From a virus (Duplodnaviria > Caudoviricetes), in the IMG/VR virus record IMGVR_UViG_3300030376_000410, positions 1 through 46,503 of that record: a stretch of 46,503 nucleotides of DNA. One strand, 5' to 3'. This document shows positions 2,336 to 40,001 of the stretch, in pieces. Within the stretch, counting starts at the first letter, position 1. The number at the start of each line of letters is the position of its first letter. The notes beneath the pieces were generated by a model that was not told where the DNA came from, made no database searches, and was given only the letters and a program-made list of their open reading frames with translations. The position numbers were made by a program, and so were the translations under genes.

Positions 2336-2704
2336 TTAATAACTCCAGATGTGTGGCCTTGGACGGCCTTCAGAGCATTCAAGGTCATCAAGATGTATGA
2401 ATCTAGTAGGGCCTTTCTGACTTACACCAATACCAGTGAAACCTGCTTCTAGAGCGCCCTGTACGAGCTTGTAAGCGGCTTCACCACGTACCCCTATATC
2501 TAGGGCCTTACCTGATGCGTGTGCCCCCGGAGAGGCTTTACGGGCCTCTATGGGATGATCAGCACAACGGTATGCAGAGTTAACAGGAAAGCTAAATCCC
2601 ATCTTCTCACGTAAGTCATCTACTTTTTGCATGAACTCAGAGTCCATGCCATTAGCTTGACAATGCTTACACTCTAGTTCTTCTTCTGTAAAATATTTAT
2701 ACAT
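2336..2704 (-). CDS. Endolysin, peptidase M15 (Zn D-Ala-D-Ala carboxypeptidase fold)
   Basis: YFTEEELEC, VNSAYRC, HASGKALD and FIHLD motifs; adjacent to holin. Confidence 0.9.
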   Translation of the reverse strand: MYKYFTEEELECKHCQANGMDSEFMQKVDDLREKMGFSFPVNSAYRCADHPIEARKASPGAHASGKALDIGVRGEAAYKLVQGALEAGFTGIGVSQKGPTRFIHLDDLECSEGRPRPHIWSY

Positions 2705-3561: not shown

Positions 3562-6500
3562 GCTGCTCTCCCTTTACGCAAAGCCTTTAATACTTTTCCA
3601 CCCGATTCAAAATTATGTCTTGCATCATTTGGATCAAACTCAATAGCACTTTCAGTTTTAAACTGTCCGGGCTTAAACAATATGTAAGAAAACGCCTCAT
3701 CAGTAGGTACATCTGCTGGAGTATCTGAAGTGTTTAAATACCTGATAGAATCAAAGCCTTGATCTTCTAGCATTTTTCTAAATGATAAATTAATATCTGC
3801 TTTTTTCATACGCTCTACAAGCAAGTCTTTTTCTGACATTCTATTTTTATTAAGCGTACCACCTGTTACTTCATCCTGCCAAGCTTCAAAGTCCAGTACT
3901 TTTTGATACAAGTTGTCTTTGGCAGCCCTAAACTTAGAAGCATTTAAATTTGGAGCCTGAGTGAATACAGCCTCAACAATATTAGGTATTGTATCTGGAG
4001 TATCGAACAACACTGAAGCGTCTGAGTACAGAGCAAAGTTAGGATCGTTTAGTTCTAAAGGATTTTTAACTTGTATAAACCCACGCATCATAGATATTGG
4101 AGGAGGAGCTTCTCCTTTTTTCAAAGGCTTTTTAAGCCTATTAGATATTTGCCGTGAAGTTAAACCTGAGTCTTCATCAAAAGCATCCTCGTCTCCTTGT
4201 CTCCTAAACAATGCCATACGTTCTGCTTGAGTCTGAGTTCCTACGTGCAGTCCCGTTTCGTTAGGCATACCCACAGCCTCTTCAAACTCATTAGAGAAAC
4301 CACTAGCCACTGCTCTGTATTGCATTTGTTTTTCTTTAGATGCGGCTATAAAAGCTTTTTTATTTGCTTCACGAATTTCAGGAGAAACCGTGTAGTCTAT
4401 AGGCATTACCTTACCTGAAGGATCTGTAGGCAGTGCTTGCCTTGGCATTCTGCTAAAAATTTTACGAGCCAATGTCCGTTCTTCTGGCGTAAACTCTGCT
4501 ATAAGTTTTGTTACTTCTTCAGTAGAAATAGTTCTACCGACAGTTTGAGCAACACCTTTGTAGTAATTATCAAACTTATATTCCCAATTAGTATTAATGT
4601 TTCTAGCACCAATAGTATCTAGCTCGTAAGCTACATGATAATCTATGTCTTGAGTATTGGCTCCTTCCATGTCGAACTGCTCGGATAGTTTCATGTCTCT
4701 ATTGTAGTTTTTTATTTGCTCTTTACTATAACCACGCGCCCTGCTAAAGTCATCTCCCATGCGTAAAGCACCTTGCTCGTCTATAAACTCAGGCATTTCT
4801 TTTCGCATATCGGGCATACTTAGGTCATGCTTTTCACCAATCGAAGATTTAACTTTTGCAAACAACATTTCCTTAAAGTCAGGATCGTCTAGCTCTGCTG
4901 GTAAATCAGGATCTGGACTAGCGTAAGTTTCTTCAATATTTTTAGCTACTTTAATTGCACCCTCAGTAGAAACTTTTACATTGTTTTTCTTGGTTTCCCC
5001 TAGAATAGTTTGAGCCAACTCATTTACAAAGGGTGATAAAGCTTTGGTAGCTGCTCTAGTCAGTCCGCCTATTACGTATCGACTTCTTTCTTCACGATCT
5101 TCTTGATCAATAAAGGCATCCCCAGCTTGTGAGTCGTAGGGACGGCCTGTTACTTTATCTATGCGCTCATCAGGTTCACTAGATGCACTTTCTACTTCTA
5201 CAAGGCCACCTTTGTCGTATGGCGCTCTACGCTTTTTCTTTTCAAAGTCTGACCAAAACTGATCATAATCTTCTTTAACATCTTCGCCCATAACCGGATC
5301 TATAGCGCCATAAAAAGGAGTACGACCACCTATAATTGGCATCACTTTACCATAGCTAAATCCTCTAGCTATATCGCTTCCTACAGGGCCAGCTAAGGAA
5401 GCTGTGGCAGTAAAGGGATTGCCTGTTACATCATAAGTTTTTTGAGTTCGTTGAACCATATCTAAAAGAATACCCGCGCCTCCCCACCGCGCTACGCCTT
5501 CAGCAGCAATTTCAGCTCCGCTTTTATCTGAAAAAGAATCTGGATTTCTTAAATAATTCAAACCTGTAGCCACCGCTGTCATACTTATAGCAGCAGCCAA
5601 AGTATTAGCAAACCCTACAGGATTGTCAAAGGGATCTCGAACACCACGTACAAACTCTTTTAAAACTTTATTTGTAAAAGCTGTGGGGTAACCTAGTAGC
5701 TCTGCAAAGATTGCTTTTTTAGGATCTGACATCCAAATAGGTTTTATGGCTGCTCTAGGGCTTGTATCCAAAACAACTTCATTTACATACCTACCAGCAC
5801 CTCTTTTAATATTTTTATAAAAAGGATCTTTAGAATTTATTTCACCATTATTTCTATTTAAATAAGCAATACCTTGATCTACATCTACGTTGAGTTCAGC
5901 CAGTTGATTTCGTAAATTTTTAATTCTTTTAGAATCAGGCAAGGCCCCATGATTTTTAATAGCTGTTAAATTTTTATGTATTAAAGATTTGCCTGTATTA
6001 TACCCAGCAAGCTGCACTGTTTTTGTCCAACCGTCTAACAAAGTTATTTGAAAAAATCCCCTATTTGCTTTTTTAAAACCGTGCCCCGCTACACTAGAGT
6101 CTCCTAAGCGATCAGCTGCGCTAACACTGGCATTTTCTAACATTAAAAATGACTCTCGCATTTCATGGAATATTTCAGGATCTGAAAGACCTTGATCTCC
6201 TAGCTTTCTTCGTAGTCCATTAGTCATTAATTCTGTGCCTTGAGCAATTGCCTGCCCAAGACCCCTAGTCATTTCGCCTGCCCCGGCCTTTTGCATATTA
6301 ATAAGTATTTCAGTCAAACTGGATATTGTGGCAAAAGGTAAAGTAGACATTCTTACCAGAGTTGCATAGCCATCTCGGGCAAACTGTCCCGCAGGCCCAA
6401 AGTCTTCTAAGCCTTCGCCTGTCATACTCTTGTAAAGATTTTGAATGTCTGTTGCATCCTTGCCAGTAAATGTATTACCTGCTTCTTCTACTTCTCTTTT

Positions 6501-8867
6501 AATAGGCTCAATAAATTTATTAGTAAACTCATTTACATTCTCTACACCAAACACTTTTCTTTTTGAATAAGAATTCGCACTTTGCGTAATGTATTGAAAT
6601 AAAACATTTTCAATATCATTATCAAGAAAGGCTTCATACTTATTATCGTCTTTAATATTACTAAACTTACGGGCAGTGAAAAAAGAATTTCCCGATACAT
6701 GAGAAGCTCCCATAGGGCCATCTACATCATCTTTCTTTTTTAGCATACCTGCTACAATAGCATTGGCTTCGTCCATATTTTTAGCTTCGCCATCTTCTAT
6801 AAGAAGTTTAGCAAATCTATTTTGACCTTTACCCGCCAGTTGATTTCTTTTAGCATCAGTTACAACTACACTTTGACCATAAAAGTCTTTCATCAAAGCC
6901 TTTCTATTCCAAAGACGCGGGAAGTAATCTTCAGGAATAACATCTGTTTGAAATCCCAATTCTTCATTTTTAGCAATTACTTGATTTAATACATCGCGTC
7001 TAATTAAACTTGCCGCTTTGTTTACATCCTCTGATTGAGAACGTGATCCACGCAAAGCTCTTATAAGTTCTTTGTTTATAACATCCTTTAAACCGCCTTG
7101 AGAAGCGTCTCGTAGGCTGTGCGTGGCTCTTATTAAAGGGGCATACAAAGATCCAGCATAGTCTTTCCAAGTCTCGTTGTAGTCCATGCCGACCTGTCGT
7201 GCTTCGCTTGTAAAAGTTTGATTAGCGTCATAACGCATTATTTCAGCTAAACGAAGAGCGGAAGGAGACTCAGAAAACTTAGTAAGTACTTTTGTAGGTC
7301 TTCCAAATAAAGCCTTACCATGTAGCGTTTGTGTTTTCTTTAGCAACATTGCTCTAGCATTATCTGGAGATATGACACCTCTTTCTACTTGCAACAGAGT
7401 GTCGGCTACTTCTGCCTGCGTTTGCTCACTGCCTCCAATTTTAGAAGTAAACGCTTGCGCTTTAGCTGTAATAGCTGCGGGAATCTCTACACTGCCCGCT
7501 TCTTGAGCCACGATAGTCAATTCATCAAGAGCTTTAGTTACCTTTTCAGAAGGAGCATCAGGGCCTTTCTTTCTAGTTTTCATGTAGTTGCTAAACGCAG
7601 CAATAGCAAACTCTCGGCGCTGTTTAGCTTTGTTCATACCATAGAATACTTCACCTATTTCTTCCATGAGTTCGTCATCTAGATCATCAATGTTAGGAAG
7701 ATCTCTAGTAGCTTCATAGTCAAATATAACTTCTTCTAGCTCTAACCTGTCTATATCATATTGCTCTGCAATTTTTTCTATGTCTGCATCAGATACAAAG
7801 CCACCATACTTAGTATCTTCTTGCTGGCGCTGTTGAGCTTCTTTAGAAGCCTGTCGAGACTGCTTAGCATTAAATCGTGCCTGCTTCTGAGCCTGTTCTG
7901 GGCTAGGAGCTACGCTCATTAAAAGCTCTTCTACGTCATCTTTAAATTCTAGATCTACATCTTTAACTTCTTCTGCTGAAATTTCATTTTGCGTAGGAGT
8001 GCCAGTTTCATTTACTAAGTTTAATTCAACTTCTTCTTCATCTACAGAGCGTCTAATGTTGGCATCACCCAACCTACTACGAAATATATTATTATAACCA
8101 CGACCAGCAAAAGACAAACCTTTGGCTAACCCCTCTCCAATTTCAGGAGAATATCGCCCTAAAGCACCACCTAAAGTTGCTCCGACACCCGCCGAAGTTA
8201 TGCTTTGCGCCATGTCAAATTCTTTTTGAATATCTGCTGCCATATTAACAGATTGTTCAGAAGCGTTACCAAGACCTCCCCAGCCTGCCCCAGCCACTGC
8301 TGTTTTTGTCATCATAGCATTCCGACTATTGCTGGCTGCAAATTGCAAAGCTCTTTTAGCTGCCTCGTTACCAACAGCAGCTTTCATGCTTGTTGCTAAT
8401 GCGGGGCCACTTACCATAAAAGTAGCTATGTTTACAGGGTCTTGAATAAGATGTTTAGCATTACCAAAAAAAGCACTTACATTTTCAAGACCTTCGGGAT
8501 CTGTATTTTCCCAATCCTGTAGTATTCTACCGTAAGCATCTTTAACTTCTTGCGGTGCTTTTTCAAGCATAGCGGCAGTACCAAAGCCAGAAAAAGTCAT
8601 AGCGTCTTGGCGTAGCCTATCTATAATTTCATCCGAAGCATAGTCTTCTACATTTCCTGCTACAGCTTTCATGTAATCGCTGTCGCCAAACCTATGCTCA
8701 AATACAGTTTCTAAATCCTCTGCTCTTGCAGCTTTAAAATCTGACACAGACATAGTAGTGTCTTGAGCGGCCTCTGGTATATCTTTAGATACAGGCGCAG
8801 ACTGCATGTGATCTGTAAAGTCATTAAGATTTGTAAAGTCTATTTTAGGCTTTGAAATTTCAGTCAT
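3558..8867 (-). CDS. Giant internal virion/ejection protein with C-terminal ADP-ribosyltransferase-like (ART-PolyVal-like) domain
   Basis: 1769 aa in the position of T7 gp16-like core proteins; YFPRLW motif; C-terminal GLHVGT...FIQVKNPL...GFDSIRYLN...YILFKPGQFKT...FDP pattern. Confidence 0.7.
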   Translation of the reverse strand: MTEISKPKIDFTNLNDFTDHMQSAPVSKDIPEAAQDTTMSVSDFKAARAEDLETVFEHRFGDSDYMKAVAGNVEDYASDEIIDRLRQDAMTFSGFGTAAMLEKAPQEVKDAYGRILQDWENTDPEGLENVSAFFGNAKHLIQDPVNIATFMVSGPALATSMKAAVGNEAAKRALQFAASNSRNAMMTKTAVAGAGWGGLGNASEQSVNMAADIQKEFDMAQSITSAGVGATLGGALGRYSPEIGEGLAKGLSFAGRGYNNIFRSRLGDANIRRSVDEEEVELNLVNETGTPTQNEISAEEVKDVDLEFKDDVEELLMSVAPSPEQAQKQARFNAKQSRQASKEAQQRQQEDTKYGGFVSDADIEKIAEQYDIDRLELEEVIFDYEATRDLPNIDDLDDELMEEIGEVFYGMNKAKQRREFAIAAFSNYMKTRKKGPDAPSEKVTKALDELTIVAQEAGSVEIPAAITAKAQAFTSKIGGSEQTQAEVADTLLQVERGVISPDNARAMLLKKTQTLHGKALFGRPTKVLTKFSESPSALRLAEIMRYDANQTFTSEARQVGMDYNETWKDYAGSLYAPLIRATHSLRDASQGGLKDVINKELIRALRGSRSQSEDVNKAASLIRRDVLNQVIAKNEELGFQTDVIPEDYFPRLWNRKALMKDFYGQSVVVTDAKRNQLAGKGQNRFAKLLIEDGEAKNMDEANAIVAGMLKKKDDVDGPMGASHVSGNSFFTARKFSNIKDDNKYEAFLDNDIENVLFQYITQSANSYSKRKVFGVENVNEFTNKFIEPIKREVEEAGNTFTGKDATDIQNLYKSMTGEGLEDFGPAGQFARDGYATLVRMSTLPFATISSLTEILINMQKAGAGEMTRGLGQAIAQGTELMTNGLRRKLGDQGLSDPEIFHEMRESFLMLENASVSAADRLGDSSVAGHGFKKANRGFFQITLLDGWTKTVQLAGYNTGKSLIHKNLTAIKNHGALPDSKRIKNLRNQLAELNVDVDQGIAYLNRNNGEINSKDPFYKNIKRGAGRYVNEVVLDTSPRAAIKPIWMSDPKKAIFAELLGYPTAFTNKVLKEFVRGVRDPFDNPVGFANTLAAAISMTAVATGLNYLRNPDSFSDKSGAEIAAEGVARWGGAGILLDMVQRTQKTYDVTGNPFTATASLAGPVGSDIARGFSYGKVMPIIGGRTPFYGAIDPVMGEDVKEDYDQFWSDFEKKKRRAPYDKGGLVEVESASSEPDERIDKVTGRPYDSQAGDAFIDQEDREERSRYVIGGLTRAATKALSPFVNELAQTILGETKKNNVKVSTEGAIKVAKNIEETYASPDPDLPAELDDPDFKEMLFAKVKSSIGEKHDLSMPDMRKEMPEFIDEQGALRMGDDFSRARGYSKEQIKNYNRDMKLSEQFDMEGANTQDIDYHVAYELDTIGARNINTNWEYKFDNYYKGVAQTVGRTISTEEVTKLIAEFTPEERTLARKIFSRMPRQALPTDPSGKVMPIDYTVSPEIREANKKAFIAASKEKQMQYRAVASGFSNEFEEAVGMPNETGLHVGTQTQAERMALFRRQGDEDAFDEDSGLTSRQISNRLKKPLKKGEAPPPISMMRGFIQVKNPLELNDPNFALYSDASVLFDTPDTIPNIVEAVFTQAPNLNASKFRAAKDNLYQKVLDFEAWQDEVTGGTLNKNRMSEKDLLVERMKKADINLSFRKMLEDQGFDSIRYLNTSDTPADVPTDEAFSYILFKPGQFKTESAIEFDPNDARHNFESGGKVLKALRKGRAA

Positions 8868-30883: not shown

Positions 30884-32568
30884 TAGTATCCAAACTCCGA
30901 ATCAACGGGTGTATATGCCTGTTCCATTCTTAAATTCCTAAACTGACTAAAGATGTCATTAACTTTAGGTCTTGACATAATTAAGTAGCGTAGCGCATCA
31001 TAAGCGTGGTCAGGTGCATTTGTATTAACATCTTCTGGGTTAGACTTGTCCAGAGGAAGACTTTGGAGTTCACGTATCAAGTTGGGACAGCTATTAAATA
31101 TCTGTATCTTAGGTCTGCCACTTGGCTGCACTCTTAAGTATTCGTGGATTTGTATCTTACCCTGTATTCTATTTTTATCTGCTCTACGTAATTTATGCCC
31201 TGCTCGTTGAAGTGTCTCTCCAACTGTAGGGCCTGTAGTACCTGTTCTGTTCCATGCTGCTGTGTCAAGTACTCCCGACACAGAGTAGGGGTCTGGTAGC
31301 TCCATGTTCGTAATCATCTGAGCTAAATCAACACCTGTCAGTCCTTTCCGATAAAGTTCCCTATATATAATAAGTGTACCGTCAGAGGGATCAACAGTGC
31401 CCCAAACACAAGCAGATTCTGAAGCGTATCCGTAGTCAATTCCTTTCACCCTTTCCCAGCCTACTGGGATTTCAAATGGTGTTATAACATGCTCCATTAC
31501 ATCAAACTCTGTAAAGGCAGCACCTTCTGTAACATCCCAGTTACCTTCTAGAAGCTGCTTACGCTGTACCGCTGGTAGAGCTTTAAGCATTTGCTCATAC
31601 CTACCATCTAAAGAAAGGTATGGATTATCTTCTAGACGGGCTGGTATGAAACGTCGTGTCAATCCATCATGGCCTGTAAAGCTCTCATTAGGCTCTGATG
31701 GATTCACATAACGCTTCTTTACCCATGTTGCACCAGCACCACCGGGGTTAGCTGTACAACGCATGTACGGCGTAATTTCAGGGTCTGTAGTACGCAGCCG
31801 TGATGCTAGGTAGTTCCAAGAAAACTCTGTTGATAGGTGAGTAATCTCATCGAAACCAATCCAACTATAAGCTTGTCCCTGATAGCGGTACACATCTGCA
31901 TCTCTTTCAAGGAAGCCAAACTCTAGTTTAGCACCACTAGGGAATGTCCAGATCTTTTCAACTTCTCTGAACCTGCATCCCGGAAAAGCCTTTGGGTATA
32001 ACTCCCTAGACTTATCTATAAGCTCCCTCAGTTCAGGCATGGAGCGTCTTAGTATTAACGCCCTGTGAGCAGCCCTGTGTGCGAATCTGAGGGGATCTAC
32101 GAGCATAGCATAGGACTTACCGCCCCCTGCTGCGCCACCATACAATACGTCTGTCTCTGGAGCCGCTAGGAAGTCTGTCTGCGGCCCATCATTAGGTTTA
32201 AAGATAATATTTTCAAGAGCTTCTTCTTTTACCTTTTTAGGAAGTTGCTCAATAGTATCTTCTGTAAGAACTTTACCTTCAATAGCTTTCTCGCTATTGT
32301 CTAGTTTAGCAAGTGTAGCCTTAGAAGTTTTTAAAGCAGTCTTTTGATTTTTAATCTTAGCTTCTGCTTTTGCAATAAGTTTTTCTTTTACACGTACTGC
32401 TTTCTTAGCAGCCATTTTATTTTGAGTAGCTCTGCTATAATGATAGCCTCGAGATTTAGATCCTTTGGCTCTTCCAGACTTCTTTCTAGGTGTTCCGTCT
32501 ACTTTTAATACAAAGTTTCCATCATCATCTGTCTGATATCTGTCAGGATTTACATCCCAATCATTCAT
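30883..32568 (-). CDS. terL: Terminase large subunit
   Basis: Walker A YGGAAGGGKS, Walker B IGFDE, motif III TANPGG, nuclease GIDYG and DHAYDALRY. Confidence 0.96.
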   Translation of the reverse strand: MNDWDVNPDRYQTDDDGNFVLKVDGTPRKKSGRAKGSKSRGYHYSRATQNKMAAKKAVRVKEKLIAKAEAKIKNQKTALKTSKATLAKLDNSEKAIEGKVLTEDTIEQLPKKVKEEALENIIFKPNDGPQTDFLAAPETDVLYGGAAGGGKSYAMLVDPLRFAHRAAHRALILRRSMPELRELIDKSRELYPKAFPGCRFREVEKIWTFPSGAKLEFGFLERDADVYRYQGQAYSWIGFDEITHLSTEFSWNYLASRLRTTDPEITPYMRCTANPGGAGATWVKKRYVNPSEPNESFTGHDGLTRRFIPARLEDNPYLSLDGRYEQMLKALPAVQRKQLLEGNWDVTEGAAFTEFDVMEHVITPFEIPVGWERVKGIDYGYASESACVWGTVDPSDGTLIIYRELYRKGLTGVDLAQMITNMELPDPYSVSGVLDTAAWNRTGTTGPTVGETLQRAGHKLRRADKNRIQGKIQIHEYLRVQPSGRPKIQIFNSCPNLIRELQSLPLDKSNPEDVNTNAPDHAYDALRYLIMSRPKVNDIFSQFRNLRMEQAYTPVDSEFGY

Positions 32569-32785
32569 TATCTACAATCTTTTTTAGACCAGCATGGCTT
32601 AGTTTACGGCCTGTTTTGTATTCAACCCACATAGCCCCTTCGCGCAAACTTAAAGACCTATCTTTTATCAGAGGCTTTATTTCTTCTAATATATTTAGTT
32701 GTTCTGGAACCTCTTCTAGAAACTTAGTATCTTCAGAAAGCACATATCCAAATGGAATTGTAGAACTTGACCTACGTTTCAACAT
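32561..32785 (-). CDS. Small DNA-binding-like protein between terminase genes
   Basis: 74 aa; IPFGY motif and SLRE...TGRKLSHAGL resembling the serine-recombinase DNA-binding region without a catalytic domain. Confidence 0.7.
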   Translation of the reverse strand: MLKRRSSSTIPFGYVLSEDTKFLEEVPEQLNILEEIKPLIKDRSLSLREGAMWVEYKTGRKLSHAGLKKIVDNE

Positions 32786-33155
32786 TAATTACTACCTCTT
32801 CTTTAGCGGGTAGCACAAAAATCCCTCCTTCTACCTTATGACTGACATCTAGTTTGTCTGCTTTTCCTAGCCCTGTGCGATCTAAAATCGTTTGAGCTGC
32901 CTGTAGTCTTACATTGACTTGAGGCATAGGTATTTCAGACTCCATAACTTGCACAAGCTTCATGGCAGCTTTAGGTGCAGATTGAGCTAGAATATTAGAG
33001 GCTAGATCTATTATTTCATTTTTTAAGGCTTTAGTTACCTGCCAATGAGTGTTAGGAGCATAGCCTGCTAAATCTGCTGCTTGCTTTGGATCACCTCCTG
33101 TCTCGACTAAATAATCTAAGAAAGTCTGTTGTTTCGTTGTCAATTCTTTTTTCAT
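32772..33155 (-). CDS. terS: Terminase small subunit
   Basis: LTTKQQTFL...AADLAGY HTH and RLQAAQTILDRTG motif; first gene of the structural arm. Confidence 0.85.
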   Translation of the reverse strand: MKKELTTKQQTFLDYLVETGGDPKQAADLAGYAPNTHWQVTKALKNEIIDLASNILAQSAPKAAMKLVQVMESEIPMPQVNVRLQAAQTILDRTGLGKADKLDVSHKVEGGIFVLPAKEEVVINVET

Positions 33156-33161
33156 TGTTTT

Positions 33162-33190
33162 ATTATAGAGGTAGTTTACAGATTTGTCAA
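33162..33190 (-). promoter_or_regulatory. Consensus sigma70 promoter for the structural arm (leaderless terS)
   Basis: TTGACA-17 nt-TATAAT; -10 ends 6 nt before the terS ATG. Confidence 0.85.
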
Positions 33191-33198
33191 GTTTTTTC

Positions 33199-33227
33199 TT
33201 GACAAATCTCTAAATTAACTCTATAAT
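33199..33227 (+). promoter_or_regulatory. Consensus sigma70 promoter pointing into the non-coding region
   Basis: TTGACA (33199-33204)-17 nt-TATAAT (33222-33227). Confidence 0.8.
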
Positions 33228-33271
33228 ATTTATAGACCCACCGGGGCTATATCTATATATACCTCCCTTCT

Positions 33272-33377
33272 TTGAAGGTCTTTGAAGACCCGCCCAAACT
33301 GGTACACACTACTTTTGGCTTATAGGGGGTTGAAGAGATTTTGAAGACCTGCCTAAACTAGTTGACATCCCTTTTGG
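33272..33377. repeat. Imperfect ~47-bp direct repeat, 2 copies
   Basis: TTGAAG..TTTGAAGACC(C/T)GCC(C/T)AAACT(G/A)GT....CTTTTGG at 33272-33318 and 33330-33377. Confidence 0.75.
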
Positions 33378-33440
33378 TTCAAAATGTATATGATTTAGTA
33401 TATATAGGGGGTGGGGGGTATGGCCTCCTGCCCGGCCCCT

Positions 33441-33888
33441 CCAAGTTCTCTAAAGAACTTGGCAAACTCCATTATTCTTCCGCGCATACTTTAAAGTCTC
33501 TAGAGACTTTAAAGCAGATCCCTCCCAGACTCTAAAGTCTAAGAAGACTTTAGAGGCTGAACCCTCCAGAGAATTTTAAAGACTTCTAGTTTACAAAGTA
33601 AACTGAAGTCTTTTTAGTCTTTGAAGTTTAGAATAAACTTCAAAGTTCTTTATAGCTTTCAAGAACTTGAAAGCTATTTAACTCCAAAGCTGCCAAGTCC
33701 ATCTAGCTCCTCCTAAGAGGAGCTAACAGACTCCAAAGTTTAAAAGACCCAAGGGGTCTTTTACATTTCCACCTAGTCCTATTAAGCCTTCTTAGGCTTA
33801 ATAGGACTAGGTGGATAAGGTTTGACTATCTTTAAAATCTTCAGAAGAAGTCTTACGACTTCTGAAGATTTTAAAGATAGTCAAACCT
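33441..33888. repeat. Array of 10 consecutive, sequence-distinct inverted repeats
   Basis: Stems of 9-30 bp checked by eye at 33441-462, 33489-514, 33530-555, 33578-613, 33619-645, 33652-677, 33704-725, 33741-763, 33768-815 and 33818-888. Confidence 0.92.
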
Positions 33889-33936
33889 AGGAAGGGCTTC
33901 GGCTCGACGAAAAATTACACAATCGGGAAAACGATT

Positions 33937-34311
33937 ATGGCTAAGTATGATTTGACAAAACCTGCGACCGACAAAGCGATCTATGCCTGTGCTGCGACCT
34001 TGGCATATAAATTCATCGGTGAGAATGATCTCAAGAGATTTGAGTTTAATAAACTCAAAGCCCGCTTTGGGGCTTCGATCAAGTCGGTTCACGAAGGACA
34101 GCCTTTGGCTGGGGATATCAACAAATTGTTTTCGGTGAAAAAAATCAACGGTAAGACTTCCGCTGCGTCGAAGTATATCAAAGTTCTCCGAACTGATGAC
34201 TTGAAATCCAACAAAGAAGTTAAAATCACTGCAAATCCAAAGCAGTCAAAGAACTTTAAAACCTCTTCGGCTCCTCGTCTTGCGACTGCCGCTGACCTCG
34301 GAATGATCTAA
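33937..34311 (+). CDS. Early hypothetical basic protein
   Basis: 124 aa, first ORF of the plus arm, followed by a terminator. Confidence 0.75.
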   Translation: MAKYDLTKPATDKAIYACAATLAYKFIGENDLKRFEFNKLKARFGASIKSVHEGQPLAGDINKLFSVKKINGKTSAASKYIKVLRTDDLKSNKEVKITANPKQSKNFKTSSAPRLATAADLGMI

Positions 34312-34320
34312 TTTAACTTG

Positions 34321-34341
34321 GCCCCCTTCGGGGGGCTTTTT
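34321..34341 (+). terminator. Rho-independent terminator
   Basis: GCCCCC-TTCG-GGGGGC followed by TTTTT. Confidence 0.85.
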
Positions 34342-34350
34342 GGAGTTTTT

Positions 34351-34440
34351 ATGGATAAATATAATTTAGATATTTGGATACCAGTGGTTGCACTATTAGC
34401 AGCTCCGCTGACCCCATTCATTATTGTAATTTTTTCTTAG
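34351..34440 (+). CDS. 29-aa hydrophobic peptide (not in ORF track)
   Basis: GGAG RBS; MDKYNLDIWIPVVALLAAPLTPFIIVIFS; stop overlaps the next gene's AGGAG RBS. Confidence 0.6.
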   Translation: MDKYNLDIWIPVVALLAAPLTPFIIVIFS

Positions 34441-34448
34441 GAGTCAAT

Positions 34449-34718
34449 ATGACTAATTCTGTTGTTGTCGATGAGCGCCGTGATGTATCTTTTGAACTTA
34501 TGAAGTTGATGAAGTTTGAGCATGTAGTTGATATGTTAACTTCTGAACTTGGTGGTCTTCAAATGAATCCTGAACTTCATACTGCGGTGTTAGCGAGATT
34601 TGAAGATGTGGTGGCTGCCAAGTTTAATAAAACTGAAGTTTGGCAGATTGATAAATGGGATGTCGCGCAAATAATCGTGATGTTAGTTCAAAGAATTACC
34701 CCGGAGGATTCCGCTTAG
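34449..34718 (+). CDS. Early hypothetical protein
   Basis: Start revised to MTNSVVV after AGGAG; 89 aa. Confidence 0.7.
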   Translation: MTNSVVVDERRDVSFELMKLMKFEHVVDMLTSELGGLQMNPELHTAVLARFEDVVAAKFNKTEVWQIDKWDVAQIIVMLVQRITPEDSA

Positions 34719-34813
34719 TTATAAACTAAAATTATAACCATTAGTATGGTTATGGTACAGCTTCTTAAGATGGTAACCAACCCGGAGTTATGCGGCTGTA
34801 CTGATTAAATAAT

Positions 34814-34834
34814 GGGAGCTACGGCTCCCTTTTT
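34814..34834 (+). terminator. Rho-independent terminator overlapping the next hairpin
   Basis: GGGAGC-TACG-GCTCCC-TTTTT. Confidence 0.75.
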
Positions 34835-34878
34835 AATCTTTAGAGGAGGTCTTACGACCTCTAAAGATTAAAAAGGGA
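34826..34878. promoter_or_regulatory. Conserved-apex hairpin, copy 2
   Basis: Perfect 21-bp arms around AGGTCTTACGA. Confidence 0.8.
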
Positions 34879-34892
34879 ACAGGAGAAAACAT

Positions 34893-35702
34893 TTGGTGAA
34901 TAGAATAAACGCAATAACTTTGAAGACTATTAAACCTATTAAGGAGTATATATATAATTATAATTTACCCTTAATGGGGTTTAATAGTTCTACTAAGATC
35001 TTAAAAGGCTTTAAAAAGCAAGATTATACCACAGGTATATTGTATTTGCAACCCGCTGATCTTGTGGCGCGTAATACTTTATGTGCTTATGCCGATGTTG
35101 CTGGGTGTAAAGAACCCTGTCTTAGATCTTCGGGCCGACTTGGAATGTCTAATGCTCAGAGGGCTATGACCCGTAGAACTGTGCAATATCTTGAAGATCC
35201 CGATGGCTTCAAAGAAAGATTACGGGCCGAGATATTACGCAATGAGACTGACAATTATTGTATCAGACTGAATGGTACTAGTGATGTGGTGTGGACTGAT
35301 CTTATTGCATCGTTACCTAACATACAATTTTATGATTACACAAAAGTTCTACACCGCGTTACTCGTAATGTTTTGTCTAACTATCATCTTACATTTTCGG
35401 CATCATTAAATAGTGTCAAGACTATTGGACAACTTAAAACTGCTACAGATCTTGGACTCAACATTGCAATATCTTTTAATACTAAAGAGTGCAGGGGCGA
35501 GTTCAAGATACCTAATAATATACAGTTGTTTGGTAATACTGTAGAGTTAGCAGACTTTGATGCCACCGACTTGAGATTTTTAGATGAGGATGGCACCGTC
35601 GGTAAATTAACACGAAAAGGATCTACAAAACTAGAAAGACTCAAGGGGCAAGGCGATCTGAATTTCTTTGCAGACCCTAATAATTTACAGTTGGTCGCTT
35701 GA
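34893..35702 (+). CDS. Gp88-like protein (radical-SAM-like Cys cluster); start uncertain
   Basis: ILYLQPA...LCAYADVAGCKEPCL..SGR, IRLNGTSD, QFYDYTK, NYHLTFS and DLRFLD motifs. Confidence 0.75.
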   Translation: MVNRINAITLKTIKPIKEYIYNYNLPLMGFNSSTKILKGFKKQDYTTGILYLQPADLVARNTLCAYADVAGCKEPCLRSSGRLGMSNAQRAMTRRTVQYLEDPDGFKERLRAEILRNETDNYCIRLNGTSDVVWTDLIASLPNIQFYDYTKVLHRVTRNVLSNYHLTFSASLNSVKTIGQLKTATDLGLNIAISFNTKECRGEFKIPNNIQLFGNTVELADFDATDLRFLDEDGTVGKLTRKGSTKLERLKGQGDLNFFADPNNLQLVA

Positions 35703-35727
35703 CATCGCAGTTAAAATACTTTAAGAT
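35699..35727 (+). promoter_or_regulatory. Sigma70-like promoter
   Basis: TTGACA-17 nt-TAAGAT. Confidence 0.7.
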
Positions 35728-35730
35728 TCT

Positions 35731-35780
35731 CCCTAGAAAACTAGGAAGGAGGTCTTACGACCTTCCTAGTTTTTCTAGGG
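35731..35780. promoter_or_regulatory. Conserved-apex hairpin, copy 3
   Basis: 19/20-nt arms (one extra T) around AGGTCTTACGA. Confidence 0.8.
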
Positions 35781-35887
35781 GTACGGTTGGAGGCACCGTG
35801 AAGCCTGACCCGCCACCTCCCTTGTGGAGCCTTTAAAGAGTGGCAATGAGCAGCTGGCAACTCATAATTTTATAATCAGGAGTTCGT

Positions 35888-36844
35888 ATGAACACAGTTA
35901 GTTTTTTGTTTGGAAACAATTCAGAAGTTGATAATCTGCGAAATGCTGGATACGGCGAAGCAGACTTTGAAGTTGTCTCTACGCCAGTATTGTATAAGGC
36001 AAGCGGCACAGATAAATTTGGAGGCATACTTAAACTTGAAGGCAAACATGTTTATTACCGCGAAGATACCGGCGATGCTTTGGCGATTCACGGTGAACGC
36101 TACAAGCCAGTGTCACATACTAAAATGATTGACACTGCTCGTAATGTATTGGAGCGCAGCAACTTAAGCCTTCAGAACATTAAAGAAACTATTCAGGTGG
36201 GAGATGATGGTGCAGTTTGTTTTGTGCGGCATCAGCTGCCTAACCATGAGATCACAACTCCCGATGGCGACACGGCTATTCTTGAGATGCTCCATATCAA
36301 TTCATTCAATTCTGTATGGCCCTACCAAGCGACTGTTGGAGCATTGCAAAATGCTTGCACAAACCATCAAGTATTCCTTGGGCAGACCGCTGGAATCTAC
36401 AAAGCTCGACACACTAACAAGCTCAGTGTAGATCAAGGCGCTCACCAAATGAATAAGATAATGAGTATCCTCGATACTCAAAATGAGATCTGGGCTGAGT
36501 GGTCTAATACTCCTGTTGGTCGCAAGGAAGCCTTTAGTTACATTGCAGAGGCAACAGGTTCTAAGTTTGCACTTGGTAAACTAAAAGAAGGCGAGGATAC
36601 TTCTTCAATCATGGGTATGCCGACTGCCTATAATAATTCTTCTTTGGTCTATGCTTGGCATCAATACAATGGAAGATACAAGCCGACGATGGGTGAAACT
36701 TACTGGGCTGTCTACAATGCTTTGACTGATTGGTCAAGTCACCATGTAGGTACTCGAAAGAATACAAGAGACATTCCAGTGGCTCAAGTCAAGAAATCTG
36801 AAAAGGTACAGCAAGTAATAGCAAAGTTCCCAATGGCAGCATAA
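35888..36844 (+). CDS. DUF932-family protein
   Basis: YREDTGDALAIHGERYKPVSH, INSFNS, ACTN, RHT and TYWAVYNALTDWSSH motifs; AGGAG RBS. Confidence 0.8.
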   Translation: MNTVSFLFGNNSEVDNLRNAGYGEADFEVVSTPVLYKASGTDKFGGILKLEGKHVYYREDTGDALAIHGERYKPVSHTKMIDTARNVLERSNLSLQNIKETIQVGDDGAVCFVRHQLPNHEITTPDGDTAILEMLHINSFNSVWPYQATVGALQNACTNHQVFLGQTAGIYKARHTNKLSVDQGAHQMNKIMSILDTQNEIWAEWSNTPVGRKEAFSYIAEATGSKFALGKLKEGEDTSSIMGMPTAYNNSSLVYAWHQYNGRYKPTMGETYWAVYNALTDWSSHHVGTRKNTRDIPVAQVKKSEKVQQVIAKFPMAA

Positions 36845-36848
36845 CTCC

Positions 36849-36879
36849 TGACACCCTGAGCATGGTGTTAAACTGCTCA
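36849..36879 (+). other. Predicted H-type RNA pseudoknot
   Basis: S1 GACACC/GGTGTT, S2 TGAGCA/TGCTCA, loops C, T and AAAC; intergenic. Confidence 0.6.
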
Positions 36880-36912
36880 CTTAATATAACTCCGGGTAAT
36901 AGAAGATTGAAT

Positions 36913-37209
36913 ATGGATAGTAGGATTGAAAGTTTGTTTGGTATTACTGAAGATGGTTATCGTGATCTTCGGTTTAATCTTAATGAGTCTAGTGTACATA
37001 CTGCTCTAGGTGGTGACGATTTACATGTTCTTTATTTTGATTCTGATGATGGTTGTGCTTTATTCTCTACCCCTTGTGAGATCTTTGAGGAGTCTGGAAT
37101 TAAATTTCAATTAATTGATTGTAATTACTGCGACATCGCCCTTTCGGATCTACAGTTTATTTATAAAATTTTCAAATCTTTTTCTGCGGAGAACACTAAT
37201 GTCCACTAA
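36913..37209 (+). CDS. Hypothetical protein
   Basis: Likely start MDSRIES; acidic; overlaps the next gene. Confidence 0.6.
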   Translation: MDSRIESLFGITEDGYRDLRFNLNESSVHTALGGDDLHVLYFDSDDGCALFSTPCEIFEESGIKFQLIDCNYCDIALSDLQFIYKIFKSFSAENTNVH

Positions 37210-37378
37210 AAAAATTCTTGTCGAAGTAGCTCTTACAGTTGAAGAGAATGTTGACTCTGAAGATGTAGTTTGTTGCTGTGACTACTCATTTACAGATTAT
37301 GACAACAGGATAATCTCTACTGAAATTAGAGGCTATACTGAAGTTTTTCCTAATGGTCAGATTACTGAGGATGTTTAA
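37199..37378 (+). CDS. Hypothetical protein
   Basis: MSTKKILVEV start after GGAG; TAATG coupling downstream. Confidence 0.65.
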   Translation: MSTKKILVEVALTVEENVDSEDVVCCCDYSFTDYDNRIISTEIRGYTEVFPNGQITEDV

Positions 37379-37611
37379 TGAAAACTAGAATCCATGTTAA
37401 TCAACATAACATTAAGGCTAACTCCAAGGGTGCTAAGTTGCCGGTTATTACTGTCAAGGACTACAAACAAAATAGAAAGGCTAATCATGCTGCTGTTGTA
37501 GACTCTGAAGGTAAACCATTGGTAAGTGTTTACTACTGTCCTGACAACCCACTGCCTTGTGGTGCTAAGGTCTGGATTGAAACTGAGTTGGAGGTTGTGA
37601 CCGTTGGATAA
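37378..37611 (+). CDS. Conserved hypothetical phage protein
   Basis: IHVNQHNIKAN...VITVK...Y.PD.PL.CGAKVWIET pattern. Confidence 0.8.
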   Translation: MKTRIHVNQHNIKANSKGAKLPVITVKDYKQNRKANHAAVVDSEGKPLVSVYYCPDNPLPCGAKVWIETELEVVTVG

Positions 37612-37891
37612 AATAGGTTTGTTTGTTGATCACTTTGTTATTTATTCTGATAGGCGGGAGGCTTTGATTCTAAATTGTGGTACTGTTTCAGCGTTTGAAG
37701 AAAGTTTGCGAGAGTTGATCTCCTCTGAAATTAGAGATACACTACTGGAGCGTGTAAAGGTATTAGATTATGACATGAAACTAACTGAACCTAATCGCCA
37801 TGTAAGTCCTCAATATGACAGACTTAGAGATGCTAGAACTACTTTGATGCGTTTGCATAATGATCTTCTTTGGAATAAGGAAACTGCATGA
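37604..37891 (+). CDS. Hypothetical protein
   Basis: 95 aa, TTG start after GGAGG, coupled to neighbours. Confidence 0.65.
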   Translation: MDKIGLFVDHFVIYSDRREALILNCGTVSAFEESLRELISSEIRDTLLERVKVLDYDMKLTEPNRHVSPQYDRLRDARTTLMRLHNDLLWNKETA

Positions 37892-38343
37892 ATATATTTT
37901 ACATTGATACTTGCCCTGTCAAGGCTGCACAAATGCAGTGCGATAAGCATGTAGTTAAAATGATTTTAGAATCTGCACAAATGCTTTGCGCTGCTCATCA
38001 TGTTGAGGGTGATGGTAATGTACCTTACAAGTTGGCTCATAAGAACCACCCCAGTACAGTGTGGACTCGAACTAATAAGAAACATTATCAGTGGCTATGG
38101 GATCACATGGTAGCTTTAGGTGAGGAATATACTGATCGTTATGGTAAAATACACATGACTATAACTAAGTGTGCTGAAGCTCTCAAAAATCCTCCTGAAG
38201 CTGTGCCAGATCTTGAGTGGGCTGATCCACCCCAGTGTATGCCTGATGAGTGTAAGCGTGAGACTTCATTGGCTGGGTACACTGAATACTATTTTAATTA
38301 CAAACCAAAGGTTATTGATATGCGTTGGAGGGGCGTTAAGTGA
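37888..38343 (+). CDS. Pyrimidine-dimer DNA glycosylase / endonuclease V-like protein
   Basis: MNIFY...DKHVVKMILESAQML...HKNHPSTVW...EYT.RYGK.H...PPQCMPD family motifs. Confidence 0.82.
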   Translation: MNIFYIDTCPVKAAQMQCDKHVVKMILESAQMLCAAHHVEGDGNVPYKLAHKNHPSTVWTRTNKKHYQWLWDHMVALGEEYTDRYGKIHMTITKCAEALKNPPEAVPDLEWADPPQCMPDECKRETSLAGYTEYYFNYKPKVIDMRWRGVK

Positions 38344-38573
38344 GTTCAATGTTTTATAAAGCTATTAATTCTCAACGTAATCTTGATAACATATTTATCA
38401 ATAGATACTGGCCTATCGGAAGACAGACCCCACCTACAGTAAACACTGTTAGTGTTTTAAAACTACACAGAGAAGGGTATCGCCAAGTTAAAATTTGTAA
38501 TAAATTAAATCTTGCTGCCTCCACTGTTAATCGTATTGTGAAAAACTCAGGTATAGATAGAGGCGATCCTTAA
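38340..38573 (+). CDS. Small HTH-like protein
   Basis: LHREGYRQVKICNKLNLAASTVNRIV helix-turn-helix pattern. Confidence 0.65.
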   Translation: MSSMFYKAINSQRNLDNIFINRYWPIGRQTPPTVNTVSVLKLHREGYRQVKICNKLNLAASTVNRIVKNSGIDRGDP

Positions 38574-38764
38574 TGCAAAACCTTATAGACATGTGTAATC
38601 ATATTCTTTATTACTCCACTATTTATTGTGGGTTTGAAGATGTCAATGATGAAATGCAAGAAGATGCGCTGCGCTTAATGTTAAAACATGGTGAGGAATT
38701 TCCTGAATCTTTTGTTAGACTTTATTTAAAAACCCAACTGGAGGATGTCAATGAGTGCTACTGA
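38573..38764 (+). CDS. Hypothetical protein
   Basis: 63 aa, TAATG coupling. Confidence 0.6.
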   Translation: MQNLIDMCNHILYYSTIYCGFEDVNDEMQEDALRLMLKHGEEFPESFVRLYLKTQLEDVNECY

Positions 38765-38975
38765 TCCACGAGAAGAATTTTGTAGTGAGATAGACGATTG
38801 GTGGTGCCAATTATTTGCATTGCGAATTGGTGCCAACCCACCTTCGGATAGAATTAAACATCGGTTTATTTCTTTCGTAGAAGAAAGATGTTCCGAAGTA
38901 GGCTGCTGGAAAATTAAAGATGGAGATTTATCTGTTTTGTTTTCTGAGTTTATTGAAAGGCTGGGTGAATGGTAG
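38745..38975 (+). CDS. Hypothetical protein
   Basis: 76 aa; start may be the ATG at 38751 after GGAGG. Confidence 0.65.
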   Translation: MSMSATDPREEFCSEIDDWWCQLFALRIGANPPSDRIKHRFISFVEERCSEVGCWKIKDGDLSVLFSEFIERLGEW

Positions 38976-39262
38976 AAGATATTTTAAAACTTAAAAGTTT
39001 TTTGTTGAACCCTAAACGCAGCGATGAGTTTTCAACTTGGTATTATCTGGATGGCTGGCGAATGTGTAAAATTAAAATAGGAAATAAAAAATGCACAGTC
39101 GTGCCCTTGTTCGGCAAGGGTAAAATAACCTTAACTATCAGAGCTTTAAAGGAGGAACTTAAATCTATTTATTGGTACGCCGCACGTTGCGATGCCAGTA
39201 AACTCGCCCGTGAAAGCGGATTGAAAAAAAGAAAATTGCAATGGGAAAGAAATTATGCTTGA
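38969..39262 (+). CDS. Hypothetical basic protein
   Basis: 97 aa ORF in the operon. Confidence 0.6.
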   Translation: MVEDILKLKSFLLNPKRSDEFSTWYYLDGWRMCKIKIGNKKCTVVPLFGKGKITLTIRALKEELKSIYWYAARCDASKLARESGLKKRKLQWERNYA

Positions 39263-39287
39263 CATGATTCCTTACTCAATGTATAAT
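39259..39287 (+). promoter_or_regulatory. Consensus sigma70 promoter for the replication module
   Basis: TTGACA-17 nt-TATAAT upstream of the SSB gene. Confidence 0.85.
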
Positions 39288-39319
39288 CTCCCCACCAAAA
39301 CCAAACGAGAGGTATAAAA

Positions 39320-39745
39320 ATGGCAGTACTAGAAGGCACAGCATATTGGGCTTTTGTTACTACCCCTAACACAACTTATGATCCGTGCTACACGGTCAAC
39401 TTAGTTGTAGATAATGAGACGGCGCAAGCATTTGAAGACCGTGGTTTCACTGTCAAGCAAATGAATGAAGGCCCCGCCATCATTATTAAACGTAAAGTCA
39501 ATGGGCCAAATGGTATGGTTCGTAGGGCACCTGTTCTTATGGATAGACTCAAGCAAGAAATTGATGTCAACGTCGGCAACGGATCCCATGTCAAAGTGCA
39601 ATATAAAGAATGGGAATCGCAATGGAACGGAAAGACTTTCAAGGGTCTTGACTTTATGAAGATGCAAGTCTTAAATCTTGTTGAATACAATAACGGTGAT
39701 GTCGATGAGTTCGATATTGAAGGTGAAGAGGAGGCAGAGCTTTGA
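39320..39745 (+). CDS. Single-stranded DNA-binding protein (T7 gp2.5-like)
   Basis: EGTAYWA..TTPNT.Y, VGNGSHVKV, QVLNLVEY and acidic C-terminal tail. Confidence 0.85.
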   Translation: MAVLEGTAYWAFVTTPNTTYDPCYTVNLVVDNETAQAFEDRGFTVKQMNEGPAIIIKRKVNGPNGMVRRAPVLMDRLKQEIDVNVGNGSHVKVQYKEWESQWNGKTFKGLDFMKMQVLNLVEYNNGDVDEFDIEGEEEAEL

Positions 39746-39972
39746 GTGAAGAAGCAAAAAACACTTTGACCTTTGAGGATAAAGAATACAATGTTGCTGA
39801 CCTCCCTGAGAGGGGACAAGTACTTGTAGGTTTTGTCCGAGAAGTTCGTGACGAGGGTGCCGCGCTGCAAAAAAGACTTTCCGTGTTACAGGCAGCAGAG
39901 ATAACTTTCTCCAAGGAATTGGAGGAGCTACTCACTGCTCCTGAACAAGAAAGTCTTGACGGTATCGACTAA
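39742..39972 (+). CDS. Hypothetical protein
   Basis: 76 aa, TTGA coupling, GGAGG RBS. Confidence 0.7.
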   Translation: MSEEAKNTLTFEDKEYNVADLPERGQVLVGFVREVRDEGAALQKRLSVLQAAEITFSKELEELLTAPEQESLDGID

Positions 39973-39978
39973 TAAATA

Positions 39979-40001
39979 GGGGCTTCGGCCCCTTTATTTT
40001 T
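39979..40001 (+). terminator. Rho-independent terminator
   Basis: GGGGC-TTCG-GCCCC followed by TTTATTTTT. Confidence 0.8.

What the first reader, a model, noticed from the sequence alone, without database searches (positions are those of the whole stretch)
33818..35780. Three long hairpins with unrelated stems but an identical bulged apex (ARG-ARG-TC-TTAC-GA-CYT), each before an early gene
Seen: 33818-33888 (30-bp arms), 34826-34878 (21 bp) and 35731-35780 (19/20 bp), about 1 kb apart. All have an 11-nt centre A(A/G)GTCTTACGA in which a duplicated trinucleotide creates a 3-nt bulge, with compensatory AAG/CTT versus AGG/CCT. The loop is C-TTAC-G on top and C-GTAA-G (GNRA-type) on the template strand. 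Copy 2 overlaps a terminator's 3' side and copy 3 starts at about +1 of a sigma70 promoter. Known analogues: N4 template-strand hairpin promoters, T7 early RNase III sites, HUH-nuclease hairpins and antitermination RNAs; none matches exactly. Inference: a structure-specific recognition element controlling early transcription or staged DNA entry.
Basis: partly seen in the sequence, partly recalled or inferred. Interest (0 to 1): 0.88.

Follow-up and report, generated by a model that had tools for sequence, protein, structure and literature searches.

The report
Tagged long hairpins before phage genes
A marine phage and many relatives place long, almost perfectly paired hairpins with the same bulged tip in front of their early genes; these likely mark where a host enzyme cuts the early messenger RNA, but the fixed tip points to a second, still unidentified reader.

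Summary
Confirmed: three hairpins (30, 21, 19 bp) with an 11-nt apex sit before early genes of an uncultured marine podovirus (terminase 65-67% identical to pelagiphage HTVC103P-type; no RNA polymerase found). Related phage contigs gave 56 distinct versions with the TC-TTAC-GA core: arms differ and stay paired (1195 Watson-Crick pairs, 2 G·T, 0 A·C), and a 3-4 nt purine-rich bulge always lies 5' of the loop on the gene strand. The apex never flipped (35 of 35) while neighbouring short hairpins flip their loops. Copies follow stop codons or terminators, or abut sigma70 promoters, some firing antisense. Best reading (0.40): T7-like RNase III processing sites in early mRNA, kept perfect by DNA-level conversion, with the apex as a recognition tag. 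Against: no shared RNase III register and almost no G·U. Rivals: target tag for a phage antisense RNA (0.2), template-strand DNA hairpin that restarts transcription without a phage polymerase (0.2), protein-bound leader (0.1). No RNA ends could be mapped. The scan's earlier notes report similar hairpin sets in other phages (unchecked). New variant of a known kind.

The parts
33818..33888 (+). Copy 1: 30-bp perfect arms, apex AAG-TC-TTAC-GA; 48 nt before the first early gene
   Evidence: homologues with compensated arms
34826..34878 (+). Copy 2: 21-bp perfect arms, apex AGG-TC-TTAC-GA; 5' arm includes the last four bases and T-tract of the upstream terminator; ribosome-binding site AGGAG at 34881-34885
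35731..35780 (+). Copy 3: 19 bp with a one-base bulge, apex AGG-TC-TTAC-GA; starts 3 nt after a sigma70 -10 box
33768..33815 (.). 22-bp perfect hairpin 2 nt upstream of copy 1; its loop flips between relatives
33894..33905 (+). Small C-UUCG-G hairpin with a G·U pair in the leader of the first gene (predicted RNA structure)
33937..34311 (+). First early gene, 124 aa, basic, no family; the hairpins accompany this gene type in every locus examined
34321..34341 (+). Terminator-like hairpin T1 after the first gene; relatives carry either a sigma70 promoter (L112) or a long hairpin (L392) fused to this terminator
34814..34834 (+). Terminator-like hairpin T2 (C-TACG-G, C-TTCG-G in relatives) overlapping copy 2; also scored on the minus strand
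35023..35051 (-). Leftward promoter-like site TTGCAA-17-TATAAT with TG, inside the GP88-domain gene, pointing at copy 2; conserved at silent codon positions
35699..35727 (+). Sigma70-type promoter TTGACA-17-TAAGAT directly before copy 3
35784..35887 (+). Structured leader after copy 3: H-type pseudoknot (35784-35806) and further helices, with compensatory and G·U changes
33162..33227 (.). Back-to-back perfect sigma70-type promoters (leftward to terminase small subunit, rightward toward the hairpins)
33381..33410 (+). Conserved motif resembling, by eye, the sequence just before the mapped terminal repeat of ICBM1, RIO-1 and VpV262; probable left genome end near 33400

Best explanation
The three hairpins are likely RNA processing signals: the early transcript would fold each into a helix of about two turns that the host's RNase III would cut, splitting the message into gene blocks, and the fixed bulge-plus-UUAC tip would serve as a recognition or positioning tag. 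Shown: the structure, its conservation, its fixed orientation to the genes and its place between gene blocks. Inferred: that it acts in RNA; that RNase III is the enzyme; that the neighbouring terminator or adjacent hairpin protects the upstream piece and the UUCG hairpin or pseudoknot leader protects the downstream piece; that the arms are kept perfect by template switching during DNA replication.
For: Arms are 17 bp or longer in 51 of 56 distinct versions (13-31 bp); an ideal RNase III substrate is 22 bp and cellular ones are often under about 20 bp (PMC3867540, passages). A ribosome-binding site and ORF follow on the apex strand in 39 of 49 versions with long flanks, against 5 of 49 on the other strand. 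Copies lie just after stop codons or terminators, as do the hairpins between T7 early genes, which share AAGGTC...GGCCTT with our AAGGTC/GACCTT upper helix (that these are T7's RNase III sites is recalled, the record does not mark them). RNA-type structures follow copies 1 and 3 (leader: 98% of cells paired, 6 pairs with changes on both sides, G·U variants). In L369/L370 the ribosome-binding site lies inside the 3' arm, so the stem must be opened or cut. No phage RNA polymerase was found. Neighbouring short hairpins flip their loops between relatives, which shows arm-to-arm exchange at the DNA level.
Against: With the E. coli pair matrix (PMC6212723 Table S4) only 2 of 17 arms beat shuffles at p<0.05 and no common cut register emerged. 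G·U is 2 of 1195 pairs against 155 of 2040 cells (7.6%, my sum) in E. coli RNase III targets. RNase III is not known to read loop sequence (recalled), yet the loop is the most conserved part. The helix above the bulge is 2-6 bp, shorter than in the T7 hairpins. Copy 2 lies behind a terminator, so only read-through RNA would contain it. If the left genome end is near 33400, no consensus promoter precedes copies 1 and 2 on incoming DNA. The fold that variants support is the lowest-energy fold on the minus strand as DNA (3 of 3) and not on the plus strand, by 1 kcal/mol or less.
Confidence: 0.4

Rival explanations
1. The shared tip is a loop-loop target for a phage antisense RNA. A leftward promoter would make a minus-strand copy of one hairpin (GUAA loop) that pairs with the tip of every sense copy and shuts the early blocks down together, as plasmid CopA/CopT RNAs do for one target (recalled).
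For: Both strands must fold, which would remove G·U and A·C alike (2 and 0 of 1195). In a second phage family a strong leftward promoter TTGAC(A/T)-17/18-TAYAAT, with TG in the five loci printed, has its -10 box at the foot of one copy (15 of 95 contexts; background 85 of 3000 random windows). A leftward site at 35051-35023 is kept in 20 of 21 codon variants of the GP88-domain gene. One antisense apex pairs with all three window copies in prediction (-18.7 to -32.9 kcal/mol). A flipped copy would lose the match, which fits 35 of 35 unflipped.
Against: The 15 contexts are close relatives, so about one lineage. The 35051 site is also kept in hairpin-less relatives. No leftward consensus promoter was found near the hairpins of L368, L139, L392, L485 or L469. 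The predicted open loop is only 4 nt. No antisense RNA was seen; the RNA runs were unstranded contigs.
Confidence: 0.2
2. The hairpins act as DNA: they would extrude as cruciforms and present a template-strand C-GTAA-G hairpin that restarts transcription after a terminator, working like N4 early promoters but with host polymerase or an unrecognised virion factor.
For: Strict Watson-Crick arms. The template loop has the C:G closing pair and 5'G/3'A loop bases that N4 promoters need (PMC4496689, passages); three copies near the left end as in N4. Terminator-plus-hairpin fusions occur in three unrelated sequence settings (window, L004, L392); at terminator T1, L112 has a sigma70 promoter and L392 a hairpin. 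A loose promoter lies between the probable left end and the first called gene in 1 of 11 hairpin-bearing and 14 of 29 other loci (Fisher p=0.03).
Against: No RNA polymerase in any protein tested. N4's polymerase needs single-stranded template from -4 on a stem of up to 7 bp; here the template stays paired for 13-31 bp. 15 of 29 hairpin-less loci also show no promoter, and 8 of the 11 are one clade. A fixed start 10 nt after the loop held in 17 of 17 close versions but only 16 of 32 others. One variant loses the template 5'G; in L360 the GNA-type loops lie on the other strand.
Confidence: 0.2
3. The tip is bound in nascent RNA by a phage protein, most likely the product of the first gene, to read through terminators or to open translation, like lambda N at nut sites (recalled).
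For: Order promoter - copy 1 - small basic gene - terminator; every locus with the window's gene-1 type has the hairpins and none with the other common type does.
Against: That co-occurrence is explained by linkage. The same core occurs beside clearly different first genes (L369/L370, L392). Copy 2 lies after, not before, its terminator. Long perfect arms are unexplained. The gene-1 model has no fold match.
Confidence: 0.1
4. The hairpins are uncut barriers (3'-end stabilisers, or terminators for leftward transcription) or by-products of template switching in a palindrome-prone genome end, with the tip shared by descent.
For: The 33440-33815 region is full of short palindromes with flipping loops. 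The 10 nt after the hairpin hold more T on the minus strand (mean 3.9) than on the gene strand (1.7). Hairpin-less relatives keep the same gene order.
Against: The core is kept while arms, flanks and neighbouring genes change, also in phages with 63% terminase small subunit identity. No loop-only flip was found.
Confidence: 0.1

Closest known systems
RNase III processing hairpins of the phage T7 early mRNA (site names and function recalled; sequences from NC_001604)
   Same: Between early genes near the left end, tens of bases before the next start; a conserved AAGGTC helix next to a defect.
   Different: T7 hairpins have 9-12 bp above an internal loop, G·U pairs and a variable tip; here the long perfect helix lies below the defect, only 2-6 bp lie above it, and the tip is the fixed part.
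N4 virion RNA polymerase hairpin promoters P1-P3 (PMC4496689, passages; EF056009)
   Same: Three copies near the left end; template-strand loop with C:G closure and G...A; a terminator upstream of one copy.
   Different: N4 stems are 5-7 bp with a 3-nt loop and are read by a 3500-aa virion polymerase; here arms are 13-31 bp with a bulge and no polymerase was found.
PeSL promoter-terminator cassettes of T4-type phages (PMC2839356 passages; PMC4122927 part 1 of 3)
   Same: Repeated elements at early gene-block boundaries where genes are swapped; fusion with terminators; a true promoter-terminator composite stands at L112:4774.
   Different: PeSLs contain a sigma70 consensus and a short G/C stem; copies 1 and 2 have no promoter consensus and long AT-rich arms.
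Cis-encoded antisense hairpins such as CopA/CopT, and multi-target phage antisense RNAs such as P1 c4 (all recalled, no paper read)
   Same: Hairpins that must fold on both strands, a bulge near the loop, leftward promoters at or near a copy.
   Different: No antisense RNA shown; 4-nt loop; several dispersed targets with different arms in a lytic-looking phage.

Membership tests
RNase III processing site (T7 early type) | Double helix of about 22 bp | tested here: met
   19-30 bp in the window; 17 bp or more in 51 of 56 versions
RNase III processing site (T7 early type) | Position between cistrons of one early transcript | tested here: inconclusive
   Position met; the promoter upstream of copies 1 and 2 is uncertain
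RNase III processing site (T7 early type) | Pair preferences around one cut register | tested here: inconclusive
   2 of 17 arms above shuffles, no common register; only Watson-Crick columns over 12 positions were used
RNase III processing site (T7 early type) | RNase III-dependent monophosphate ends in vivo | not testable with these tools
   RNA runs held only contigs
N4-type hairpin promoter | Virion-borne single-subunit RNA polymerase | tested here: not met
   No hit in PHROGs, Pfam, NCBIfam or PDB sequence and profile searches; the large virion proteins were not folded
N4-type hairpin promoter | Short stem and 3-nt loop with unpaired template from -4 | tested here: not met
   Arms 13-31 bp; loop 4 nt in 55 of 56 versions
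N4-type hairpin promoter | Template loop with C:G closure, 5'G and 3'A | tested here: met
   C-GTAA-G in 54 of 56, C-GTA-G in 1, C-TAAA-G in 1 (most versions were found by patterns containing this loop)
PeSL | Sigma70 consensus joined to the stem-loop | tested here: not met
   Only copy 3 abuts a promoter; 14 rightward and 15 leftward of 95 contexts
Cis-encoded antisense RNA system | Opposite-strand promoter that transcribes the hairpin | tested here: inconclusive
   Consensus sites present in some lineages, absent in others
Cis-encoded antisense RNA system | Antisense RNA made and pairing with the target | not testable with these tools
   No stranded reads
Rfam families | Score above a family's gathering threshold | tested here: not met
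   19 weak matches in 32500-40000, none at gathering score
HUH/REP or integron attC hairpin | Cognate HUH nuclease or integrase gene; conserved foot | tested here: not met
   None among 44 ORFs in PHROGs or 27 in Pfam; the foot varies and the tip is conserved

The most novel reading that the evidence does not exclude
In these phages a long DNA hairpin replaces the sigma70 promoter: the bulged C-GTAA-G tip on the template strand restarts early transcription behind terminators and at the promoter-less left genome end, with no phage RNA polymerase, so that host polymerase or an unknown virion factor reads a DNA structure as a promoter.
Probability: 0.15. Interest if true: 0.9.

Novelty: new variant of a known kind. 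Interest (0 to 1): 0.55.

Why it matters
Relatives of abundant marine podoviruses without their own polymerase use two designs at the same early loci: sigma70 promoters or long tagged hairpins. If the hairpins are RNase III sites, they extend the T7 device with a fixed tip that RNase III alone does not explain. If the tip is read by one antisense RNA or works as a DNA restart signal, it is a new way to time phage early genes. The 56 natural versions and the promoter-for-hairpin swap at one terminator give ready-made test constructs.

Tried and rejected
Rfam: nothing at gathering score. Fixed start or cut 10 nt after the loop: 17 of 17 in close versions, 16 of 32 in a wider family; dropped. One RNA contig begins at 35769 inside copy 3 (run X15); a single contig cannot show an end; not used. 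DNA contigs begin at 33381-33383, but a 31-mer shared by many phages explains such breaks; not used as an end. RNase III matrix: no register. Virion polymerase: not found; a wider search of protein representatives was not obtained, so remote polymerase folds stay open. Gene-1 protein: no Atlas hit above 0.78 and no fold match. Metagenome scan: 1 of 117 loci held a long hairpin. No relative of gene 1 in bacterial genomes, so no host. HTVC103P and HTVC115P lack such hairpins in the stretches read. 'Hairpins replace promoters' as a rule: weak, since 15 of 29 hairpin-less loci also lack a detectable promoter. T4 RegB-type GGAG target (recalled): absent from copy 1. No covariance model was built. 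Ten literature searches were run; those on Zobellviridae + hairpin (16), marine podovirus + RNase III + hairpin + early genes (131), cobaviruses, HTVC103P (118) and UUAC/UNAC (132) listed no paper describing this element; most subscription papers and bioRxiv supplements are outside the library.

Full report
Setting. The window is a 46,503-base virus record, 90% complete. Virion, portal and terminase genes run on the minus strand up to 33155; early and replication genes run on the plus strand from 33937. The terminase is 65-67% identical to pelagiphages HTVC103P, 104P and 115P and the DNA polymerase about 50%. The host is unknown. No RNA polymerase was found: 44 ORFs against PHROGs, 27 against Pfam, 12 against NCBIfam, two virion proteins and a six-sequence profile against PDB sequences. 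The large virion proteins were not folded.

Observation. The three hairpins are as described. The window has 5 perfect inverted repeats of 13 bp or more against 0 in each of 20 simulations. Rfam has no match at gathering score.

Conservation. An exact apex scan gave 91 loci, and protein-anchored searches (primase, gene 1, DUF932, terminase small subunit) gave syntenic relatives without using the motif. A second pattern gave 119 loci, 67 with a long hairpin on the same core; 44 of those 67 also hit a marker protein of this phage group. Pooled, there are 56 distinct versions with 13-31 paired bases: 1195 Watson-Crick pairs, 2 G·T, 0 A·C, 24 other mismatches and 16 one-base bulges. These are related sequences, not independent events. 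The bulge is AAGT, AGG, AAG, GAGT, AAGG, ATAG or ACT, always 5' of TC on the gene strand. The loop reads TTAC in 54, TTTA in 1 and TAC in 1, but most versions were found by patterns that contain TTAC. The unbiased count is 35 of 35 apices in the gene-strand orientation in 13 terminase-anchored loci, where neighbouring short hairpins show both loop orientations (AAGA 9/TCTT 2, TCTT 3/AGAA 3, AAA 4/TTT 2). More distant relatives keep the plan (long stem, small defect, short top) with other tips: L133/L139, L360, copy 1 of L369/L370 and of L392. Many syntenic relatives have no such hairpin, so it is one of two designs.

Fold. Energy models put two folds within 1 kcal/mol: a 2x2 loop with a triloop (lowest on the plus strand) and the bulge with a C-TTAC-G loop (lowest on the minus strand as DNA in 3 of 3 copies). 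Variants favour the second: the unit next to TC covaries with the 3' arm, and the TTTA variant keeps TC/GA while breaking the other fold.

Context. A ribosome-binding site and ORF follow on the apex strand in 39 of 49 versions, against 5 of 49 on the other. Of 95 contexts, 14 overlap a terminator, 14 start just after a rightward -10 box and 15 have a leftward promoter at the foot of the 3' arm; the background for such a promoter is 85 of 3000 windows. The terminator fusion recurs in three unrelated settings, and at terminator T1 one relative has a promoter and another a hairpin. Genes after copy 2 differ between close relatives, as at PeSL cassettes (PMC2839356, passages; PMC4122927, part 1 of 3). 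The sequence at 33381-33400 resembles, by eye, what precedes the mapped terminal repeats of ICBM1, RIO-1 and VpV262 (repeats described in PMC6775973, passages). If that holds, the perfect promoter at 33199 lies only at the right end of virion DNA and copies 1 and 2 have no consensus promoter upstream on entry (output partly cut). Yet that promoter is present in every terminase-anchored locus listed and is often the only consensus one in 5 kb, so it may be the early promoter after all. This point is open.

Mechanism. I take RNase III processing as most likely (0.40). Helix length, intercistronic position, likeness to the T7 hairpins, RNA-type leaders downstream and the lack of a phage polymerase favour it. 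The step from structure to enzyme is inference. The E. coli matrix (PMC6212723: passages, section 27 and Table S4) gave no register, G·U is nearly absent, and the fixed tip needs a second reader. Perfect arms can come from template switching, which the flipping loops show at work; then the mismatches that persist at fixed places (for example A·A at pair 14) would be selected weak points, and defects at a target site can turn a double cut into a single nick (PMC3867540, passages). The antisense reading (0.2) explains the lack of both G·U and A·C, the shared tip and its fixed orientation, and has consensus leftward promoters behind it in two lineages, but not in five other loci examined. The DNA restart reading (0.2) explains terminator fusion, the promoter swap and the N4-like template loop (PMC4496689, passages) but lacks a polymerase and conflicts with the long paired template. 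A protein-bound leader and a passive barrier get 0.1 each. The first two readings can combine, since an antisense duplex is itself an RNase III substrate.

What was not seen. All RNA and DNA runs were contigs, so no start, end or strand was measured. Statements on CopA/CopT, P1 c4, lambda N, RegB and the names of the T7 sites are recalled. Paper searches were read as listings except where passages are cited; none listed a description of this element, and most subscription papers are outside the library.

Earlier notes of the scan describe long hairpins with a conserved tip before early genes in other phages and mostly favour RNase III. They are unchecked and were not counted as evidence; I held RNase III at 40% before reading them. 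Sequence look-ups of copy 3 and of an L370 copy found no look-alike.

Verdict. Real, conserved, uncatalogued in Rfam, and under strand-specific selection. It works most like T7 early processing hairpins but fails to match them in anatomy, and it is not an N4 promoter by membership. New variant of a known kind; interest 0.55.

Noticed in passing
window 35784-35887: Leader after copy 3 with an H-type pseudoknot and further helices; 8 versions, 98% of cells paired, 6 pairs with changes on both sides. No Rfam match at gathering score.
   Followed up: partly
window 35051-35023 (minus strand): Leftward extended-10 promoter-like site inside the GP88-domain gene, kept in 20 of 21 codon variants and also in hairpin-less relatives; would make antisense RNA to the first early genes.
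   Followed up: partly
L473, L458, L460, L511, L370:5806: Strong leftward sigma70 consensus whose -10 box is the foot of a hairpin arm; predicted short minus-strand hairpin RNA, often followed by T-rich bases.
   Followed up: partly
L360/L368:3689-6211: Four 18-27 bp hairpins with a different tip (AC-NNN-GTG; loops TTT, ATA, GTA, GAA) before early genes, three of them shortly after a stop codon; only one weak promoter match in the region.
   Followed up: partly
L133:1227, 1636; L139:3506, 3915: Two near-identical 17-bp hairpins with an 11-nt tip whose bulge lies on the 3' side.
   Followed up: no
window 33440-33815: Run of eight short to medium perfect palindromes just inside the probable left genome end; loops invert between relatives; more perfect in hairpin-bearing phages than in three hairpin-less genomes.
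   Followed up: partly
window 33161-33228: Back-to-back perfect TTGACA-17-TATAAT promoters forming one inverted repeat; the rightward one is present in all terminase-anchored loci listed and in HTVC103P and HTVC115P.
   Followed up: partly
L112:4774-4804: Terminator hairpin sitting inside the spacer of a sigma70 promoter (PeSL-like composite).
   Followed up: no
window 2704-3561 (minus strand): LysM plus an unknown conserved 170-aa domain (invariant DRYNFN-like and GS.EGEG-like motifs), fused to the large virion protein in other phages by PHROG 7348; present in 2 of 2 hairpin-bearing and 0 of 3 hairpin-less genomes.
   Followed up: partly
window 3558-8867 (minus strand), residues about 1500-1760: C-terminal domain that looks by eye like an ADP-ribosyltransferase fold (recalled motif pattern; no library hit); shared at 30% with hairpin-less relatives.
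   Followed up: no
window 34351-34440: Short hydrophobic ORF (about 29 aa) with a ribosome-binding site directly behind terminator T1, so T1 is probably read through.
   Followed up: no
window 39978-39993: Two-way terminator-like hairpin between the SSB block and the primase gene, with no consensus promoter before primase.
   Followed up: no
L124: Mosaic: window-type first gene and hairpins joined to a primase of the hairpin-less type (66%).
   Followed up: no
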